Source: an uncultured Acidobacteriota bacterium (GTDB lineage: Bacteria; Actinomycetota; Acidimicrobiia; Acidimicrobiales; SHLQ01). Taken from it: 64,000 bases of DNA. The notes below the pieces were generated by a model. It saw nothing but the letters and a program-made list of their open reading frames with translations. It made no database searches and was not told the DNA's origin. The first letter of the stretch is position 1. Each line of letters starts with the position of its first letter. The stretch covers positions 51,976 through 115,975 of the forward strand of contig CAVTWS010000007.1 of NCBI GenBank assembly GCA_963738445.1, given 5' to 3'. Positions 18,381-23,209 of the stretch are shown here, piece by piece. The position numbers and the translations under genes were made by a program.

Positions 18381-19496
18381 GTGAACTTCGCCTTCAGTGA
18401 GGAGCAGGAAGAGCTCCGTCGCATCGTCCGCCAATTCCTCGATGACAAGTCGCCCGAATCCGCCGTCCGTGACCTGATGGCGACCGAGAAGGGCTACGAC
18501 GACGCCGTCTGGAGCCAGATGGCGGAGCAGATGGGCCTGCAGGCGCTGATCATCCCCGAGGAGTACGGCGGCGCCGGCTACTCCTACGTCGAGCTGATCG
18601 TCGTGCTCGAGGAGATGGGCCGGAGCCTGCTGTGCGCCCCCTACTTCTCGACCGTGGCCCTGGCGTCGAACGCCCTCATCCACTCCGGCGACGAGGCGGC
18701 CAAGAGCGCGCATCTGCCGGGGATCGCATCCGGTGAGACCATCGCCACCGTGGCCTTCACCGAGGACAACGGCCGCTGGGACGAGTCGGGGATCACCATG
18801 GAGGCCTCGGGTGGCGATGGTTCGTACACCCTGACCGGCTCCAAGATGTACGTGCTCGACGGGCACGTCGCGAATCTGCTCGTGGTCGCGGCCCGCACCG
18901 GCTCGGGGGTGTCGTTGTTCACCGTCGCCGGCGACGCGGCCGGCCTCACCCGCACCTCGCTGGCCACCATGGACCAGACCCGTAAGCAGGCCCGGATCGA
19001 GTTCTCCGGCACCCCGGCCACGCTGCTCGGCACCGAAGGCGGTGGCTGGGCGGTCCTGGAGCGGGTCCTCGACCTCGCCGCAGTGGCCCTGGCCGCCGAG
19101 CAGGTCGGCGGCGCCCAGAAGTGCCTCGACATGGCAGTCGAGTACGCCAAGGTGCGGGTGCAGTTCGGTCGACCGATCGGCTCGTTCCAGGCGATCAAGC
19201 ACAAGTGCGCCGACATGCTGCTCGAGGTCGAGTCCGCCAAGTCCGCCGCCTACTACGCGGGCTGGTGCGCCGCTGAGCTCAACGACGAGCTGCCGTCGGT
19301 GGCCAGCCTGGCCAAGGCGTACTGCTCGGAGGCCTACTTCCACACCACCGCCGAGAACATCCAGATCCACGGTGGGATCGGGTTTACGTGGGAGCACCCC
19401 GCGCACCTCTACTTCAAGCGTGCCAAGAGCTCCGAGTTGCTCTTCGGCGACCCGACCTACCATCGCGAGCTGCTGGCGCAGCGCATCGGCATCTGA
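18381..19496 (+). CDS. Acyl-CoA dehydrogenase
   Basis: IPEEYGGAG, RVQFGRPIGSFQAIKH, QIHGGIGFTWEH; GGAG RBS. Confidence 0.95.
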   Translation: MNFAFSEEQEELRRIVRQFLDDKSPESAVRDLMATEKGYDDAVWSQMAEQMGLQALIIPEEYGGAGYSYVELIVVLEEMGRSLLCAPYFSTVALASNALIHSGDEAAKSAHLPGIASGETIATVAFTEDNGRWDESGITMEASGGDGSYTLTGSKMYVLDGHVANLLVVAARTGSGVSLFTVAGDAAGLTRTSLATMDQTRKQARIEFSGTPATLLGTEGGGWAVLERVLDLAAVALAAEQVGGAQKCLDMAVEYAKVRVQFGRPIGSFQAIKHKCADMLLEVESAKSAAYYAGWCAAELNDELPSVASLAKAYCSEAYFHTTAENIQIHGGIGFTWEHPAHLYFKRAKSSELLFGDPTYHRELLAQRIGI

Positions 19497-19547
19497 CCGG
19501 GTCCGGAGGGCGCTGATGCCCGGCGCCCGTCATCGTGAAGGGGTGAC

Positions 19548-19997
19548 ATGGAGATCGTGATCTTCGTGCTCGCCGGCCTGGCGGTGCTGGCCGTAGCGTT
19601 CGGGGTGGTGGGCCGCGCCGTGTTCCGCCTCGAGCGGCAACCGGAGCCGGCCGTGCTCGAGGTCGAAGCCGCCGTGGCCTGGATCGCCGATCGGGTGCCC
19701 ACCGAGGTGGCGGGTCGGCTGAGCGAAACCGATGTCCGCCGCCTCGTCAACTGGCACATCGACGAGCTCGACCGCATCGGCCTGACGAGCGACAGCGGCG
19801 CGGAGATAGCGCCGGTCGACGGCTCGGCCGATCCCGGCCCGGTGACGATCGCCACCGCGCAATTCGACGAGATCACCGACGCCATCGTGGCGCGTGGTCT
19901 GGCCGCGGACGAACCGTACGAAGCGGTGGATGTCGTCGTCGTCCTCGACCTCTACAACCAGTACCTCGCCCACATCGGTGCCGTCAGGAATTCCTGA
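19548..19997 (+). CDS. Hypothetical protein with an N-terminal membrane anchor
   Basis: Hydrophobic N-terminus, RBS-like GAAGGGG, ends QYLAHIGAV. Confidence 0.7.
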   Translation: MEIVIFVLAGLAVLAVAFGVVGRAVFRLERQPEPAVLEVEAAVAWIADRVPTEVAGRLSETDVRRLVNWHIDELDRIGLTSDSGAEIAPVDGSADPGPVTIATAQFDEITDAIVARGLAADEPYEAVDVVVVLDLYNQYLAHIGAVRNS

Positions 19998-20029
19998 GAC
20001 GACATCGACTCTCCTGTGTCACACTGGTT

Positions 20030-20291
20030 TCACCAAGGAAAGGAGGTGGTCCAGCTGAACGAAGGTAGATCTGGGACCTTGGAGGTGGCTGGCCGCTAGG
20101 CCGGTTGCTGGAACAGCTTGGCGAAACCCCGCCGGCCACCATCGGACCTCGCGGTCGGGCCGAGTCCCGCCCGACTGCCCCGGACCACCGAGCATCTGCT
20201 CGGGACGTCCAGCGGCGAACGCGAACCGAGCTCCAGCCCATCATTTCCAAACCGGCCGGGAGTCTGCCCTTGGTGGCGGCTCCCGGCCGGT
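20030..20291 (+). ncRNA. Candidate structured RNA with an extended anti-16S leader and an internal 14-codon ORF
   Basis: GGAAAGGAGGTGGTCCAGCTG (20037-20057); stems 20151-20178, 20188-20203 and 20251-20291; no long ORF with coding-like bias; ends approximate. Confidence 0.5.
20055..20099 (+). CDS. Putative small peptide (L/M)NEGRSGTLEVAGR, CTG start
   Basis: CTG at normal spacing after the AGGAGGTG core, TAG at 20097-20099; translation unproven. Confidence 0.4.
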   Translation: MNEGRSGTLEVAGR

Positions 20292-20409
20292 GCCGTTGTG
20301 GAGGTGGTGTGGGGTTCGGTGCCCGAACTCCTCAACTCCGCACTCCTCAACAATGGCGTCGGTTGTCCGATGGGGCTCAGGCGTAGCGTCGTGGCAAGGA
20401 GTGGACATC

Positions 20410-21234
20410 ATGGGCGAGAAGTGGCACGGGAAGTTCGTGTTCCGGGCGTTGCTGGGGCTGGTGGCCGTCGCCGCCGTCGCCGGCGCGGTGACGATGTCGG
20501 CGGCGTCGGGCGAGCCCGAGGCCGATGGCGAGACGGCTGCGCCGAGACTCGAGGGCGGTCTGAAGATCGTCAAGACGCACCCCGGGTTGCCGAACTCGGA
20601 CCCCCGTCTCGGTACGACCCTGTTCTTCCGGTTCGACTACACGTGCACCGACGGCACCGTCGGCCAGGTGATCTACCCCACCGATTTCAATGGGGCGAAC
20701 TCCCAAGCGGAGGATGCGTTGCCGCTGGGCACGGTCTGCACGGTCACCGAATCGATCGTGGGTGACGCCGCCGCCAACTGGACGGTCACCAGCCACGTGG
20801 AGAGCCAGGGCGGAGGGTTCCTGCCCATCAACCCGGCCACCGTCCCGATCAACAACGCCACCGGCAACAACGTGGTGCAGTTCAAGAACGAGTACGACCC
20901 GATCGTGACTCCCGGACCCGGCACGCTCACGGTGATCAAGGACTTCGTCGGCGGATCCACCCCGGTGACGATCGGCTACGTCTGCGGGAACAGCACCGGC
21001 AGCTTCACCTTCAGTGCCGATGGCCAGGCCTCGGTATCGATCCCCGCCGGTACGACCTGCGTCCTCACGGAGACCTTCGACAACGGCGATGCTGCGGCGT
21101 GGACGACGTCCGCCAACGGCGCGTGTGCCCTGAGCACCTCGGTGGTGGTGGCATCGGCGCAGACCGCCACGGCAACCTTCGTCAACACGCTCGTCGACTA
21201 CTCGGTGACGTCGACGTGCCCGCCCAACGGGTGA
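20410..21234 (+). CDS. Secreted protein with two Ig-like DUF5979/prealbumin-like repeats
   Basis: Signal peptide; two repeats of L.(I/V).K...YxC...P.GT.C..TE...F.N; AGGAG RBS. Confidence 0.7.
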   Translation: MGEKWHGKFVFRALLGLVAVAAVAGAVTMSAASGEPEADGETAAPRLEGGLKIVKTHPGLPNSDPRLGTTLFFRFDYTCTDGTVGQVIYPTDFNGANSQAEDALPLGTVCTVTESIVGDAAANWTVTSHVESQGGGFLPINPATVPINNATGNNVVQFKNEYDPIVTPGPGTLTVIKDFVGGSTPVTIGYVCGNSTGSFTFSADGQASVSIPAGTTCVLTETFDNGDAAAWTTSANGACALSTSVVVASAQTATATFVNTLVDYSVTSTCPPNG

Positions 21235-21346
21235 GGGCCCGTTCAGGAAAGAGCGGCCGCCGCTTCCGGTGGCGAACCGAAATCGAGTCGAAGGCATCAG
21301 GTGTCTCTTCGGGCGCCACCGGTAGCGTCTCGCACGAGGCAGGGCT

Positions 21347-23209
21347 ATGACGGGCACCACACAGATCGAGGGCAGCGGCGACCCGGGCATCCCGTCGGAC
21401 GTTCCCGACCCGGGCGGGGTGATCGACACGGATCCCCCCACCCTGCCGGACCTCCCCGCGGCGCGACCCTGGTGGCGCCGCCGCCGAAACGTCGTCGCTG
21501 TCGTGGCGCTGCTGCTCGCCGGTTACGGCGCCCTCGTCGCCGTACGGCTGCTCTCGGCCCGATCCGACCTGGAGGCGGCGCGCGACATCTTGAACGAGTG
21601 GCGCGCCGACACCGATGCCGACACGCTGCTCGACGCCGGCGACGACCCCCGCCTGGCCGAGGCCGAAGCGCTGCTCGAGGGGGCCACCGGCGGTGTCACC
21701 GGACCGCTGTTCCTTCCCGTGCGGCTGATCCCCGTGGCCGGCACCCAGATCGATTCCGTGCAGTCGCTCACCACCTCGGCCCGCGATCTGGTTCGCGCCG
21801 GGCGGGTGGCGCTCGCCGCCATGGCCGAGGAGGTCGACGCCTACGAGGTGTCCGGTGATCGGCTGGCGCTCGTCGATGCCGCCGGCACGCACATCGATCG
21901 GCTCAACGAGGTTGTCAACGATGTGGACCTCGGCCCCGGATCCGGCTTGGTCGGGCCGCTGCCGGGCGTGCGCGACGAGTTCGCGGCGGACTACGTCGAG
22001 CTCGTCGAGGCCGTCGACGACGCCTCGGCGGCGGTGTCCAGCCTCGATGCGTTCCTCCGGACCGATGGTCCCTACCTCGTGCTCGGCGCCAACAACGCCG
22101 AGATGCGAGCCGGGGGCGGCATGGTGCTCTCCCTGGGCGAGATGACGATCGACGAGGGGGAGATCGATCTCGGCGACATCCAGCCGGTCTCCCAGCTCGC
22201 CGAATTCGATCCGGTCGAGATCGATCGGGAGCTCGAGGATCTCTACGGCAACCTCGGCCCGGGCCGTGAGGTGCGAAACATCAACGTGCTTCCGGCCTTC
22301 CCCCGGGTGGCCCAACTGGCGGCGGACCAGTGGCGGGCGATCACCGGGCGCGAAGTCGAGGGCGTGATGCTCCTGGATTCGGCCGGGTTGGCCTCGATGG
22401 TGGGTGCCACGGGCCCGATCGAGGTCGACGGCGAGACGTACGACCAGCAGGGCATGCTCGACTATCTCCTGACGGGCCAGTACCTGGAGTTCCACGAGGT
22501 CGACCAGACCCTCGACGATGTCGACGACCGGCGCGACCGGCTGGGCGAGATCGCCGACACGGTGTTCAACGCCCTGCAGGCCGATGTGGATGCCCCCGCC
22601 CTGGTCCGTTCCCTGCAATCGGCCGCCCGCCAACGTCATCTGATGATCTGGTCGACCGATCCGGAGATCCAGGCCGGTTGGGAGGCCATCGACGTCGCCG
22701 GGCTGCTCCAGCCCGAGTCGCTGATGCTGTCCATCCTCAACCGGGGCGGCGACAAGATGGACGCCTTCGTGAACATCGACGCCGACCTGACCTTTACCGA
22801 CGCGACCGGCGGCGGGGTCGACGCCACGTTGGTGCTGTCGCTCGAGAACGCGACTCCGGACGGCATGCCGCACTACGTCACCGGCCGGGCCCCGGAGTAC
22901 CACGACATCCGCGAACAGATCGCCGAGTACGTCGGGATCTTGAGCATGTCGTTGCCCGGCGCCGCGACCAGCGTCGAAGTCGACGGCGCGGAGGTCACGA
23001 CCCAGGGTCCCGACGGACCGAGCCAGGTGGTCGGTGCCCAGTTCACCTTGCTCCGCACCGAGTCGACCGCACTGACGGTGAGGTTCCACCTCCCCGACGA
23101 CGTCGACGAGATCCGGATCGAGCCCACCGGTCGTGGTCGCGCCGTACCGTGGACCGTCGCCGGCGTGCAGTTCCTCGACGGGTGGGCCCACACCGTACCG
23201 GTCGGCTGA
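21347..23209 (+). CDS. DUF4012 domain membrane-anchored protein
   Basis: One TM helix, helical region, YLVLGANNAEMRAGGG, NRGGDKMD. Confidence 0.8.
   Translation: MTGTTQIEGSGDPGIPSDVPDPGGVIDTDPPTLPDLPAARPWWRRRRNVVAVVALLLAGYGALVAVRLLSARSDLEAARDILNEWRADTDADTLLDAGDDPRLAEAEALLEGATGGVTGPLFLPVRLIPVAGTQIDSVQSLTTSARDLVRAGRVALAAMAEEVDAYEVSGDRLALVDAAGTHIDRLNEVVNDVDLGPGSGLVGPLPGVRDEFAADYVELVEAVDDASAAVSSLDAFLRTDGPYLVLGANNAEMRAGGGMVLSLGEMTIDEGEIDLGDIQPVSQLAEFDPVEIDRELEDLYGNLGPGREVRNINVLPAFPRVAQLAADQWRAITGREVEGVMLLDSAGLASMVGATGPIEVDGETYDQQGMLDYLLTGQYLEFHEVDQTLDDVDDRRDRLGEIADTVFNALQADVDAPALVRSLQSAARQRHLMIWSTDPEIQAGWEAIDVAGLLQPESLMLSILNRGGDKMDAFVNIDADLTFTDATGGGVDATLVLSLENATPDGMPHYVTGRAPEYHDIREQIAEYVGILSMSLPGAATSVEVDGAEVTTQGPDGPSQVVGAQFTLLRTESTALTVRFHLPDDVDEIRIEPTGRGRAVPWTVAGVQFLDGWAHTVPVG

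What the first reader, a model, noticed from the sequence alone, without database searches (positions are those of the whole stretch)
20030..20291. Stand-alone structured RNA carrying a 21-nt antisense match to the 16S rRNA 3' end
Seen: 20037-20057 reads GGAAAGGAGGTGGTCCAGCTG. Known: the reverse complement of the usual actinobacterial 16S 3' end is AGAAAGGAGGTGATCCAGCCG. All three differences would form G-U pairs, so 21 contiguous pairs are possible, far longer than an ordinary Shine-Dalgarno and reaching into the 3' strand of helix 45. No normal gene follows. Instead there are stems: GGTGGCTGGC/GCCGGCCACC, GCGGTCGGGC/GCCCGACTGC (20151-20178), CCGAGCA/TGCTCGG (20188-20203), and a closing 12-bp stem (20251-20262 with 20280-20291). 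A CACACT -10-like box lies just upstream. I could not match it to tmRNA, RNase P, SRP, 6C or a riboswitch I know. Inference: an RNA that captures or sequesters 30S subunits or pre-16S rRNA, which is notable because many neighbouring genes look leaderless.
Basis: partly seen in the sequence, partly recalled or inferred. Interest (0 to 1): 0.85.

Follow-up and report, generated by a model that had tools for sequence, protein, structure and literature searches.

The report
Known sRNA with super-strong ribosome site
The stretch is a divergent copy of a known but uncharacterised actinobacterial small RNA whose long match to the ribosomal RNA tail is a maximal ribosome-binding site in front of a tiny conserved 14-codon reading frame.

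Summary
Window 20037-20057 can form 21 contiguous pairs (18 Watson-Crick, 3 G-U) with this genome's own 16S 3' end. That is the longest such run at any of 17,282 GGAGG sites in the genome, apart from the antisense of the 16S gene.

The element is not unmatched. It is a sub-threshold hit (38.7 bits, cut-off 45) to Rfam RF02471, Ms_IGR-5. Relatives, including one of the same genus, pass the cut-off.

Across the family, 17 nt complementary to the 16S tail are conserved. They lie inside a covarying hairpin. They are followed 7-13 nt later by a start codon and an open 12-15-codon frame. Here the start is CUG at 20055. A stop codon (UAG, UAA or UGA) lies exactly five codons after an invariant GAGGUG.

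The frame runs through one strand of hairpin P1, a covarying pseudoknot partner and helix P2.

Best reading: a stand-alone small RNA with a maximal Shine-Dalgarno and a translated mini-ORF, so that ribosome loading remodels the RNA. A pure 30S decoy is not excluded. The physiological role is unknown and I found no description of it in print.

The parts
20017..20025 (+). Promoter-like extended -10 (TG-n-CACACT).
   Evidence: It aligns with a conserved TGTG-N5-(A)CT motif 6-7 nt upstream of the RNA 5' end in 21 relatives. The E. coli-type consensus scan found nothing. Function is inferred.
20032..20295 (+). The whole RNA: a predicted transcript of about 260 nt, a Ms_IGR-5 family homologue.
   Evidence: The Rfam RF02471 match covers 20032-20188, 38.7 bits, E 2.6e-7, model positions 1-184. 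The 5' end is inferred from the model start and from the +1A reported for M. smegmatis IGR-5. The 3' end is inferred from the hairpin 20251-20291. No RNA data exist for this genome.
20033..20036 (+). P1 outer stem, 5' strand (CCAA). It pairs with 20079-20082 (UUGG).
   Evidence: On 136 sequences, 3 of the 4 pairs show compensatory changes in 49, 38 and 42 sequences, and the helix is 95.2% paired.
20037..20057 (+). Complement of the 16S 3' tail, i.e. an extended Shine-Dalgarno (SD1). The part conserved across the family is 20037-20053. Positions 20037-20047 form an 11-nt bulge between the two P1 stems.
20048..20052 (+). GGUCC, the 3' extension of SD1. It can pair with 20074-20078 (P1 inner stem) or with the 16S sequence GGAUC.
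   Evidence: It is 92-98% paired in alignments. It stays GGUCC in the variants listed even where its partner X changes; one exception, L150, has GAUCC.
20055..20099 (+). Mini-ORF: CUG AAC GAA GGU AGA UCU GGG ACC UUG GAG GUG GCU GGC CGC UAG, translated as (M/L)NEGRSGTLEVAGR*.
   Evidence: Translation. The start position, open frame and stop position are conserved in 119 of 122 and 42 of 44 unique relatives. The other two frames give 24 and 4, and 14 and 1.
20073..20077 (+). Segment X (GGGAC, codons 7-8). It is the pseudoknot or alternative partner of the P3 loop GUCCC (20164-20168).
   Evidence: All 22 type-A sequences are complementary, 2 of them through a compensatory change GUGAC/GUCAC.
20081..20088 (+). 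Second Shine-Dalgarno-like motif (GGAGGUGG), inside the ORF. The conserved hexamer GAGGUG (20082-20087) ends 9 nt before the stop codon.
   Evidence: GAGGUG is invariant in alignment A2. A stop lies exactly 5 codons after GAG in 135 of 138 hits.
20084..20093 (+). P2 5' strand (GGUGGCUGGC). It pairs with 20131-20140 (GCCGGCCACC).
   Evidence: 91.8% paired in 22 sequences. Across the family, position 9 takes C-G 44, U-G 35, G-C 28 and U-A 10.
20094..20101 (+). P2b 5' strand (CGCUAGGC, which contains the stop codon). It pairs with 20116-20123 (GCUUGGCG).
   Evidence: 87.7% paired in 22 sequences. It is present in the minimum-free-energy folds.
20124..20130 (+). Bulge AAACCCC, at the place of the family-wide GAAUYCC motif that precedes the P2 3' strand.
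   Evidence: Seen in the sequence listings, by eye.
20151..20178 (+). P3 hairpin (GCGGUCGGGC / GCCCGACUGC) with the loop CGAGUCCC.
   Evidence: The conserved GUCCCGCC is seen. Stem covariation cannot be judged in the MAFFT alignment (45% paired).
20182..20189 (+). GGACCACC, an internal segment that looks like an anti-Shine-Dalgarno. It is the exact complement of GGUGGUCC in SD1.
   Evidence: The window's own duplex z-score is only -0.98. Similar segments occur in other lineages. Suggestive only.
20188..20203 (+). P4 hairpin (CCGAGCA / UGCUCGG). It was seen only in the window's copy.
   Evidence: The same-genus relative L009 carries a different hairpin at this place.
20242..20248 (+). CAUUUCC, a pyrimidine motif. 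UUUCC is complementary to GGAAA at the 5' end of SD1, and this region pairs with SD1 in the full-length fold.
   Evidence: Full-length folds. TTCCA is invariant in 22 of 22 type-A sequences.
20251..20291 (+). Terminal 12-bp hairpin, the putative 3' end or terminator. It has no clear U tract.
   Evidence: It is conserved in the same-genus relative L009. The consensus terminator scan does not call it.

Best explanation
This is the Acidimicrobiia-type copy of the Ms_IGR-5 small-RNA family (Rfam RF02471). It is a stand-alone RNA of about 260 nt with its own promoter.

Anatomy. The first hairpin (P1) has a 4-bp covarying outer stem. Inside it sits a purine stretch complementary to the whole free 3' tail of 16S rRNA. 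Seventeen nucleotides of this are conserved in the family and 21 pair in this genome. The start codon lies in the apical loop; here it is the near-cognate CUG at 20055. From it a 14-codon frame runs through three elements:
- the 3' strand of P1
- a segment (GGGAC) that also pairs with the loop of hairpin P3
- the 5' strand of helix P2, which carries a second Shine-Dalgarno-like GAGGUG 9 nt before the stop. The stop codon itself lies in P2b.

Inferred mechanism. A 30S subunit docks on the maximal Shine-Dalgarno. It initiates, translates the mini-ORF and, in doing so, must unzip P1, the P3-loop contact and P2/P2b. Ribosome loading would then switch the RNA between a closed form and an open form. 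The open form would expose pyrimidine-rich segments that resemble an anti-Shine-Dalgarno.

Shown: family homology; conservation of the 16S complement; the start, frame and stop signature; and covariation in P1, P2 and the P3-loop contact. Inferred: that translation occurs in this organism, that the RNA switches, and what it regulates.
For: Family.
- RF02471 hit over the full model, 38.7 bits, E 2.6e-7.
- One copy in the genome.
- 21 of 41 related genomes match, 7 above the cut-off. One same-genus genome scores 49.3 bits; the other scores 44.3 bits, below the cut-off.
- 44 of 151 genomes of the phylum match, 19 above the cut-off.

16S complement.
- Positions -5 to +11 around GGAGG are pairable in at least 40 of 43 sequences found by the covariance model, not by my pattern. 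Pairability then drops to 3-30 of 43.
- The position opposite the U of GAUCA is G in 39 and A in 4, never a pyrimidine.
- GGUCC stays unchanged in the variants (one exception, L150) where its intramolecular partner X changes, while the P3 loop changes with X.

Mini-ORF.
- A table-11 start 7-13 nt after AGGAGG plus an open frame is found in 119 of 122 pattern-set sequences and 42 of 44 model-set sequences. Frames +1 and +2 give 24 and 4, and 14 and 1.
- The two model-set misses, L011 and L014, were anchored on the wrong motif by the script. Both show the frame when read by eye.
- The stop lies exactly 5 codons after GAG in 135 of 138 hits: TAG in 115, TAA in 12, TGA in 11.
- Where ATG, GTG or TTG is missing, the aligned codon is CTG, ATT, ATC or ATA.

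Structure.
- P1: 91.0% paired against 78.9 +/- 0.6 in shuffles (0 of 500 as high); 130 cells with changes on both sides against 33.2; slid controls at most 43%.
- P2 and P2b: 91.8% and 87.7% paired.
- Match between X and the P3 loop: 4.40 against 3.94 +/- 0.056 in shuffles.

Context and literature.
- In class Actinomycetes the flanking genes are divergent and convergent. That fits a stand-alone unit.
- Passages I read report ribosome footprints on MS_IGR-5 homologues in M. abscessus and M. smegmatis, RNA-seq validation in S. lividans, a small-RNA transcription unit in S. avermitilis, and an NAD-capped +1A transcript in M. smegmatis.
Against: - The window's Rfam score is below the curated cut-off (38.7 against 45). 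Eleven pairs of the model's terminal stem are missing.
- The start here is CUG, a weak start codon. No expression or ribosome data exist for this organism.
- The paper that reports footprints says that many classical non-coding RNAs (6C, F6, tRNAs) also give footprints and that clear evidence of translation is lacking.
- Every conserved residue of the peptide (E-V-A/T) coincides with an invariant RNA motif, GAGGUGRCU. This holds even at third codon positions, including GCU, which I recall as a rare codon in high-G+C actinobacteria. The frame signature therefore rests on the start, the stop and the openness of the frame, not on amino-acid selection.
- The large sequence set was selected with my own pattern, and relatives are not independent of each other.
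- The 16S tail of this genome was assumed for all genomes.
- The conserved purine stretch could also be kept for intramolecular pairing. GGACCACC-like and CCUUUCC-like partners exist.
- The switch and its output are pure inference.
Confidence: 0.6

Rival explanations
1. Untranslated ribosome or 16S-tail decoy. The RNA binds the 16S 3' tail of 30S subunits or of precursor 16S rRNA and holds it. The small frame is incidental, or serves only to let the ribosome leave.
For: - Seventeen conserved nucleotides cover the whole free tail, far more than initiation needs.
- The predicted duplex energy is -25 to -39 kcal/mol, against -8.7 for GGAGG.
- GGUCC is conserved independently of its internal partner in most variants.
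- Weak start codons (CTG, ATT, ATC, ATA) occur in 23 of the 42 model-set sequences with a start.
- Ribosome-associated reads are reported in two mycobacteria.
Against: - A decoy needs no start codon at a fixed spacing, no open frame and no stop at a fixed place. All three are kept, and the stop varies among TAG, TAA and TGA.
- There is one copy per genome, so stoichiometric titration of ribosomes would need very high expression.
- The pairs that reach into helix 45 are not conserved.
Confidence: 0.12
2. A small-protein gene. The 12-15-residue peptide (...T-x-E-V-A-x-x) is the active product, and the RNA structure only controls its synthesis.
For: The start, frame and stop are conserved across a phylum and beyond. 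E-V-A/T is nearly invariant.
Against: - Residues 2-4 and the last two residues vary freely.
- The only conserved residues coincide with an RNA motif that is invariant at synonymous positions and is base-paired in P2.
- About 200 nt of conserved, covarying RNA lie downstream of the stop.
Confidence: 0.13
3. Leader peptide or attenuator. Translation of the mini-ORF decides whether transcription reads through the downstream hairpins into the next gene.
For: - A short frame lies ahead of strong hairpins.
- In Acidimicrobiia a co-oriented alpha/beta-hydrolase-like gene lies about 120-550 nt downstream in many loci. That name was given by eye and was not tested against Pfam.
- In the window a DUF5979 protein gene starts 118 nt after the last hairpin.
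Against: - In class Actinomycetes the next gene is convergent (THAP4/nitrobindin-like, 35 loci) and the upstream gene is divergent.
- The downstream gene is not the same across lineages.
- Passages I read describe a discrete small-RNA unit with mapped start and end in S. avermitilis and call IGR-5 one of three validated but uncharacterised small RNAs in M. smegmatis.
Confidence: 0.08
4. A purely structural purine strand. The 16S-like complementarity exists only because the RNA carries internal segments that look like an anti-Shine-Dalgarno (GGACCACC, CCUUUCC) and pair with it. Ribosomes play no part.
For: - Internal complements of SD1 recur in several lineages.
- The full-length fold pairs SD1 with 20233-20248.
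- The G at the GAUCA position gives G-C with the internal partner but only G-U with 16S.
Against: - Only 17% of 166 sequences have an internal duplex with z below -2.
- The partners differ in place and sequence between lineages, while SD1 itself is nearly invariant.
- This reading does not explain the start, frame and stop signature.
Confidence: 0.05

Closest known systems
Ms_IGR-5 small RNA (Rfam RF02471; M. smegmatis IGR-5 between MSMEG_5794 and MSMEG_5795)
   Same: - A full-length match to the model.
- The same 5' motif ACnnnGGAAGGAGGUGGUCC, the same GAGGUGGCUG...GCUAG, the same P2 and the same GUCC hairpin.
- The sequences closest to the model (L143-L145, 165-186 bits) carry the same mini-ORF.
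   Different: - The window scores 38.7 bits, below the cut-off of 45.
- The long outer stem of the last hairpin is missing.
- About 70 extra nucleotides (the GGACCACC segment, P4 and a further stretch) lie before the terminal hairpin.
- The start codon is CUG at 8-nt spacing, not UUG, AUG or GUG at 10-13 nt.
- The synteny differs.
- The passages I read call the family's function uncharacterised.
Dual-function small RNAs that also encode a small peptide (SgrS/SgrT, RNAIII/delta-haemolysin, SR1/SR1P; named from memory)
   Same: A structured small RNA with its own promoter that carries a short translated frame.
   Different: In those RNAs the peptide has its own conserved sequence and the base-pairing region is separate from it. 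Here the frame is buried in the conserved helices, and the peptide shows no conservation beyond the RNA motif. No sequence relation was tested.
Attenuator-derived small RNA rnTrpL with leader peptide peTrpL of Sinorhizobium (PMC6614838; only the search listing and abstract were seen)
   Same: A short leader-type frame in a small structured RNA that is released as a stand-alone RNA.
   Different: rnTrpL comes from an attenuator ahead of trp genes and senses Trp codons. Here no conserved downstream operon and no tell-tale codon run were seen.
Autoregulated non-AUG initiation as in infC (AUU start read by IF3; named from memory)
   Same: Near-cognate start codons (CUG, AUU, AUC, AUA) at the start position in 23 of the 42 model-set sequences with a start.
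   Different: Nothing links this RNA to initiation factor genes, and many lineages use AUG. Not tested.

Membership tests
Rfam RF02471 Ms_IGR-5 | An Infernal score at or above the curated gathering score (45 bits). | tested here: not met
   The window scores 38.7 bits, E 2.6e-7, over model positions 1-184. One same-genus genome, G001, scores 49.3, and 7 of 41 relatives pass. I therefore file the window as a divergent homologue through that chain, not as a hit in its own right.
Rfam RF02471 Ms_IGR-5 | The conserved 5' block (GGAAGGAGGUGGUCC in a hairpin) and the GAGGUGGCUG...GCUAG block. | tested here: met
   The cmscan alignment has posterior marks of 9 or * across these blocks. The alignments with relatives agree.
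Rfam RF02471 Ms_IGR-5 | The helix formed by GGUGGCUG and CAGNCACC (P2). | tested here: met
   20084-20093 pairs with 20131-20140. P2 is 91.8% paired in 22 sequences. Position 9 covaries across the family.
Rfam RF02471 Ms_IGR-5 | The long terminal hairpin (model positions about 127-178) with the inner GUCC loop. | tested here: inconclusive
   The inner hairpin with GUCCC is present (20151-20178). Eleven pairs of the outer stem are deleted in the window.
Rfam RF02471 Ms_IGR-5 | Expressed as a discrete small RNA. | not testable with these tools
   Only published data for other species are available.
Translated small ORF (dual-function small RNA) | A Shine-Dalgarno, then a start codon at working distance, an open frame and a stop, all conserved. 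| tested here: met
   119 of 122 and 42 of 44 unique sequences, against 24 and 4, and 14 and 1, in the other two frames. In the window: CUG at 20055, 8 nt after AGGAGG, and UAG at 20097-20099.
Translated small ORF (dual-function small RNA) | Selection on the amino-acid sequence. | tested here: inconclusive
   Only E-V-A/T is conserved, and it coincides with the invariant RNA motif GAGGUGRCU.
Translated small ORF (dual-function small RNA) | Direct evidence of translation. | not testable with these tools
   Published ribosome footprints exist for mycobacterial homologues, with the authors' caveat that non-coding RNAs also give footprints.
Leader-peptide transcription attenuator | A conserved co-oriented downstream gene under its control. 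| tested here: not met
   The downstream gene is convergent in 35 loci of class Actinomycetes, and the co-oriented genes differ elsewhere.
tmRNA | A tRNA-like domain and a tag frame recognised by ARAGORN. | tested here: not met
   ARAGORN finds 0 genes in 19000-21500. No Rfam tmRNA hit, even at E up to 10.

The most novel reading that the evidence does not exclude
The RNA is a conserved docking site for ribosomes. A complement to the entire free 16S tail captures idle 30S subunits, or tests whether their anti-Shine-Dalgarno tail is intact. The often weak start codon and the 12-15-codon frame act as a gated exit: only a translation-competent ribosome can pull itself off. While leaving, it flips the P1 / P3-loop / P2 switch. 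The cell would thereby read out its free translation capacity and pass that on through the exposed anti-Shine-Dalgarno-like segments.
Probability: 0.15. Interest if true: 0.85.

Novelty: new member of a known kind. Interest (0 to 1): 0.6.

Why it matters
Ms_IGR-5 is one of the most widely conserved actinobacterial small RNAs. It matched in 44 of 151 sampled genomes of the phylum. Copies in Blastocatellia (Acidobacteriota) also pass the Rfam cut-off. The passages I read still call it uncharacterised.

This analysis gives it a concrete and testable anatomy:
- the longest possible Shine-Dalgarno, complementary to the whole 16S tail
- a mini-ORF that often starts with a non-canonical codon
- a second Shine-Dalgarno-like site placed to meet the terminating ribosome
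- a covarying pseudoknot that translation must break

If the ribosome-driven switch is real, it would be a simple device by which bacteria sense or buffer ribosome availability. It can be studied in M. smegmatis or Streptomyces with standard tools.

For genome annotation, the result shows that Acidimicrobiia copies fall just under the Rfam threshold.

Tried and rejected
- Rfam at gathering thresholds found nothing in the 64-kb window. Only the E-value mode showed RF02471. The other weak hits (prion pseudoknot, miRNA families, CC2171, ASdes) are far below their cut-offs and were dismissed.
- tmRNA or tRNA: none found.
- The longer ORFs that overlap the region on both strands (88, 93, 85 and 215 aa) have no Pfam family. 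They run across conserved RNA helices, so I treated them as spurious.
- GTG at 20046 inside the Shine-Dalgarno was rejected as the start. The distance from GGUCC to GAG takes all three values modulo 3 across the family, so that frame is not kept.
- The consensus promoter and terminator scan found nothing. It is built on E. coli-type signals.
- RNAalifold on alignment A1 gave a poor consensus. It missed P2 and proposed GCUGGA/UCCAGC, with 1 compensatory and 3 broken cases. I did not adopt it.
- The test for an internal anti-Shine-Dalgarno mimic was weak: median z -0.14, and 17% of 166 sequences below -2. I keep it only as a suggestion.
- P3 stem covariation could not be judged because MAFFT misaligns it (45% paired). 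I built no covariance model of my own.
- Expression: the look-up of sequencing runs listed no RNA holder, only DNA metagenome runs of one study.
- Literature searches found no paper on the function, mini-ORF or extended Shine-Dalgarno of this family. The searches were Ms_IGR-5, RF02471, IGR-5 with smegmatis, Rv0812/Rv0813c, ncRv and ncMSMEG names, and anti-Shine-Dalgarno with small ORF and actinobacteria. A further search for the original M. smegmatis heterologous-Hfq screen returned related papers, none on this family. Ribo-seq or small-ORF lists in those supplements may already contain this frame.
- The smORF in the 5' UTR of Rv0813c is a different element, by the passage's account a membrane protein lying in that gene's own 5' UTR.
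- My placing of the mycobacterial copy between Rv0812 and Rv0813c, and the boundary of helix 45, are recalled from memory and were not tested.
Full report
**1. The observation**

Window 20037-20057 reads GGAAAGGAGGTGGTCCAGCTG. The assembly holds one detectable 16S gene. It ends ...GCGGCTGGATCACCTCCTTTCT. The window stretch can therefore form 21 contiguous pairs with that end: 18 Watson-Crick and 3 G-U.

I scanned all 17,282 GGAGG sites on both strands of the 5.26-Mb assembly and extended each one along the 16S tail. This site gives the longest run, apart from the antisense of the 16S gene itself. The next runs are 17 (one site) and 15 (four sites).

Predicted duplex energies are -39.1 kcal/mol for the 21-mer and -29.5 if only the last 16 nt of the tail are offered. 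The 15-mer 20039-20053, which lies within the conserved stretch, gives -25.1, and GGAGG alone gives -8.7.

The + strand folds better than shuffles (z -4.35, 0 of 200 as good). The - strand gives z -2.51.

**2. What family it is**

At Rfam's curated thresholds the 64-kb window has no hit. At permissive thresholds, 20032-20188 on the + strand matches RF02471 (Ms_IGR-5, 'Actinobacteria sRNA') over the whole model. The score is 38.7 bits against a cut-off of 45, with E 2.6e-7. The loss of score comes mainly from 11 deleted pairs of the model's terminal stem.

The genome has one copy. The wider searches gave:

| Sample | Genomes with a match | Above the cut-off |
|---|---|---|
| Close relatives (including G000) | 21 of 41 | 7 |
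| Sample of the phylum | 44 of 151 | 19 |
| Sample of the phylum of one Blastocatellia genome | 4 of 101 | 1 |

- Among the relatives, one same-genus genome scores 49.3 bits and the other 44.3.
- Four of the 44 phylum matches are unpublished genomes. Without them the tally is 40 of 147.
Most are from Actinomycetota: Micromonospora, Mycobacterium, Nocardioides, Amycolatopsis and Acidimicrobiales. A few carry titles of Blastocatellia, Terriglobales, Syntrophobacter, Sumerlaeota, Eisenbacteria and Leptospira.
- Two Blastocatellia copies pass the Rfam cut-off (52.3 and 49.6 bits).
- The model was trained on Actinobacteria and the filters were strict, so the 4 of 101 is a lower bound.

**3. What is in print**

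I saw passages only.

- M. smegmatis IGR-5 lies between MSMEG_5794 and MSMEG_5795. It is NAD-capped, starts with an A, and is called 'validated but yet uncharacterized' (bioRxiv 10.1101/2021.12.14.472595).
- It is seen again as ncMSMEG15794c (PMC10454040).
- The S. lividans copy is confirmed by RNA-seq (PMC8079986).
- S. avermitilis has it as a small-RNA transcription unit (PMC8780764).
- Homologues in M. abscessus and M. smegmatis carry 'significant ribosomal reads' (PMC4974804). The same paper warns that 6C, F6 and tRNAs do too, and that clear evidence of translation is lacking.
- No search returned a paper on the function of the family, on a small ORF in it, or on its long Shine-Dalgarno. 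Supplementary tables were closed.

**4. The 16S complement is a family property, but it is 17 nt long, not 21**

I used 48 sequences found by the covariance model, not by my pattern: 21 loci and 27. They give 43 unique sequences, of which two were wrongly anchored by the script.

- Positions -5 to +11 around GGAGG, that is RGRAAGGAGGUGRUCCR, can pair with the tail in at least 40 of 43 sequences.
- Beyond that, pairability falls to 3-30 of 43.
- The commonest run length is 17. Six sequences reach 21 and three reach 22.
- The position opposite the U of GAUCA is G in 39 sequences and A in 4, never a pyrimidine.

This count assumes that all these genomes share the window genome's 16S tail. I did not check that.

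By my recollection of the 16S fold, the 17 nt cover the whole single-stranded tail plus one or two residues of helix 45. The window's four further pairs (GCUG) would need helix 45 to open. They are lineage-specific and contain the candidate start codon.

**5. A mini-ORF follows**

In every relative a stop codon lies exactly five codons after an invariant GAG GUG. This holds in 135 of 138 pattern hits, and the stop is TAG in 115, TAA in 12 and TGA in 11.

| Set (unique sequences) | Frame of GAG: table-11 start 7-13 nt after AGGAGG plus open frame | Frame +1 | Frame +2 |
|---|---|---|---|
| Pattern set (122) | 119 | 24 | 4 |
| Model-derived set (44) | 42 | 14 | 1 |

The two misses in the model-derived set, L011 and L014, were anchored by the script on a GTGTGGTTC in the promoter. 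Both show the frame when read by eye.

The distance from GGUCC to GAG takes all three values modulo 3. The frame is therefore set by the loop start codon, not by the GTG inside the Shine-Dalgarno.

Start codons differ between lineages.
- Class Actinomycetes uses AUG, UUG or GUG at 10-13 nt.
- Acidimicrobiia and another family (f28) mostly use CUG, AUU, AUC or AUA at 8-9 nt.
- In the model-derived set the counts are CTG 15, ATT 4, ATC 3 and ATA 1, against TTG 10, ATG 5 and GTG 4.

Some Acidimicrobiales have AUG in the aligned place. One example is MNDGCCGTLEVAGR in L127, against the window's LNEGRSGTLEVAGR. The window's frame is 20055-20099.

Only E-V-A/T is conserved in the peptide. It coincides with the RNA motif GAGGUGRCU, which is invariant even at third codon positions. 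The coding signature therefore rests on the start, the openness of the frame and the stop, not on amino-acid selection.

**6. Structure**

*P1.* The outer stem is 20033-20036 with 20079-20082. The inner stem is GGUCC 20048-20052 with GGACC 20074-20078. SD1 sits in the 11-nt bulge between them, and the start codon lies in the apical loop.

On 136 sequences:
- 91.0% of cells pair, against 78.9 +/- 0.6 in shuffles (0 of 500 as high).
- 130 cells have changes on both sides, against 33.2 +/- 4.3.
- Slid controls pair at 43% or less.
- Three of the four outer pairs show compensatory changes, in 49, 38 and 42 sequences.

An independent script count gave 3.8 of 4 paired, against 2.92 +/- 0.06 in shuffles.

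*P2 and P2b.* P2 is 20084-20093 with 20131-20140. P2b is 20094-20101 with 20116-20123 and contains the stop codon. They are 91.8% and 87.7% paired in 22 Acidimicrobiia-type sequences. Position 9 of P2 takes C-G 44, U-G 35, G-C 28 and U-A 10 across the family. The script chose the 3' strand by best fit with a CACC anchor, so this count leans towards pairing.

*A pseudoknot or alternative contact.* The segment GGGAC (20073-20077, codons 7-8) is the exact complement of GUCCC in the loop of P3 (20164-20168).
- All 22 sequences of alignment A1 keep this complementarity. Two do so through the compensatory change GUGAC/GUCAC.
- Other lineages show UGGAUG/CAUCCG, GGAUU/AUCCG, UCGAYC/GGUCGA, GCGACC/GGUCG and GGAACC/GUUCC.
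- The longest Watson-Crick match between this segment and the first hairpin loop after P2 averages 4.40, against 3.94 +/- 0.056 when segments are shuffled among sequences (maximum 4.11 of 300).
- The flanking bases pair in 68 of 115 cases against 47.5 expected, and in 54 of 115 against 33.1 expected.
- In those variants the Shine-Dalgarno extension stays GGUCC (L150, with GAUCC, is the exception). The pair between its first G and the base after GGAC holds in only 69% of sequences.

The P3 loop therefore follows the changes in this segment, and in most variants the Shine-Dalgarno extension does not. This is the best internal evidence that GGUCC is held by something other than P1. Pairing with the 16S tail is the obvious candidate.

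Relatives are not independent of each other, so all these shuffle figures overstate significance.

**7. Further anti-Shine-Dalgarno-like segments**

- Many lineages carry a near-perfect complement of SD1 downstream of the stop. Examples are GGACCACCUCC, CUGGACCACCUG, GGAUCACCCCC and GACCACUUCCUU.
- The window has GGACCACC at 20182-20189.
- A UUUCC(A) motif before the last hairpin is invariant in 22 of 22 Acidimicrobiia-type sequences. It pairs with the 5' half of SD1 in the full-length fold.
- The shuffle test is weak: z is below -2 in 17% of 166 sequences.

I treat this as a hint that the finished RNA can close over its own ribosome site.

**8. Genomic context**

In the window the element lies between two co-oriented genes. 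Upstream is a 149-residue protein with no Pfam family (19548-19997). Downstream is a secreted DUF5979 protein (20410-21234).

The 149-residue protein is directly upstream in 16 Acidimicrobiia loci. A co-oriented alpha/beta-hydrolase-like gene follows in many of them. That name was given by eye from the sequence and was not run against Pfam.

In class Actinomycetes the neighbours are different and lie on the opposite strand. GcvT/YgfZ-like and Fur-family genes lie upstream. A THAP4/nitrobindin-like gene is convergent downstream (35 loci). A DsrE-like gene is also found downstream.

The element thus keeps its own conserved promoter-like motif while its neighbours change. That fits a stand-alone gene and argues against a leader of one particular operon.

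**9. How it most likely works**

*Shown:*
- a conserved complement to the whole 16S tail
- a start codon in a loop at working distance
- a short open frame
- a second Shine-Dalgarno-like GAGGUG that ends 9 nt before the stop. That is about the distance at which a ribosome with the last sense codon in its P site could pair with it
- three covarying contacts (P1, the P3-loop contact and P2/P2b) whose one strand lies inside the frame.

*Inferred:* a 30S subunit binds SD1 very tightly and initiates. In this lineage it does so at a weak CUG. Elongation then strips the 3' strand of P1, the P3-loop contact and the 5' strand of P2/P2b. This frees their pyrimidine-rich partners. After termination the RNA refolds or closes over SD1.

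What the open form does is unknown. It might act on other RNAs, limit its own reloading, or report free ribosome capacity.

I give 0.6 to the composite statement. Roughly, the parts are family membership 0.95, a real translated mini-ORF 0.75-0.8, and a ribosome-driven switch 0.4.

**10. Verdict**

It is, however, a member of a described family, which lowers its novelty as an element. A conserved mini-ORF changes the likeliest mechanism from sequestration to very strong initiation.

The family-level features worked out here did not appear in any paper returned by my searches, and they are directly testable:
- the 17-nt complement to the 16S tail
- the frequent non-canonical start codons
- the stop-proximal second Shine-Dalgarno
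- the covarying pseudoknot inside the frame
- the copies outside Actinomycetota.

Noticed in passing
window 19548-19997 (+): A 149-residue protein with an N-terminal hydrophobic segment and no Pfam family lies directly upstream of the RNA. Related ORFs occupy the same place in 16 Acidimicrobiia loci, so gene and RNA travel together in this class.
   Followed up: partly
window 20410-21234 (+): The downstream gene encodes a signal-peptide protein with a DUF5979 domain (E 3.3e-18). It replaces the alpha/beta-hydrolase-like gene (named by eye, not tested against Pfam) found after the RNA in many other Acidimicrobiia.
   Followed up: partly
L073 3340-3597; L058 1265-1496; L096; L037; L118; L053; L090: The RNA, with its mini-ORF, occurs outside Actinomycetota. 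Blastocatellia copies pass the Rfam cut-off of a family named 'Actinobacteria sRNA'. Copies in records titled Terriglobales, Syntrophobacter and Sumerlaeota keep the Shine-Dalgarno, the frame ending in EVA-x-x-stop, and the CAGNCCACC strand.
   Followed up: partly
L154, L156-L158, L161-L164 (family f28): A second, separate lineage also uses CUG at 8-nt spacing (GGUCCAGCUG or GGUCCAACUG). It carries GGAUCACCCCC downstream of the stop, a near copy of the 16S tail sequence.
   Followed up: no
own genome G000: C12 near 423405 (+) and C24 near 295951 (-), outside the window: These are among the next-longest 16S-tail complements in the genome: GGGGGAGGTGGTCTGGC (17 nt) and GAGGAGGTGATCCAG (one of four 15-nt runs). 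I did not check whether they precede genes.
   Followed up: no
L025, L027, L036, L039, L063 and other loci of class Actinomycetes: A Fur-family regulator gene is transcribed divergently about 100-130 nt upstream of the RNA in 21 loci. Beside it lie GcvT/YgfZ-like, nitrobindin-like (THAP4 haem-binding) and DsrE-like genes. Control of the RNA by a metal or redox regulator is a lead I did not test.
   Followed up: no
window 20124-20130, and the GAAUYCC motif in relatives: The conserved bulge GNGAAUYCC before the P2 3' strand resembles the CGAAUCC part of a tRNA T-loop (recalled from memory). It may be chance.
   Followed up: no
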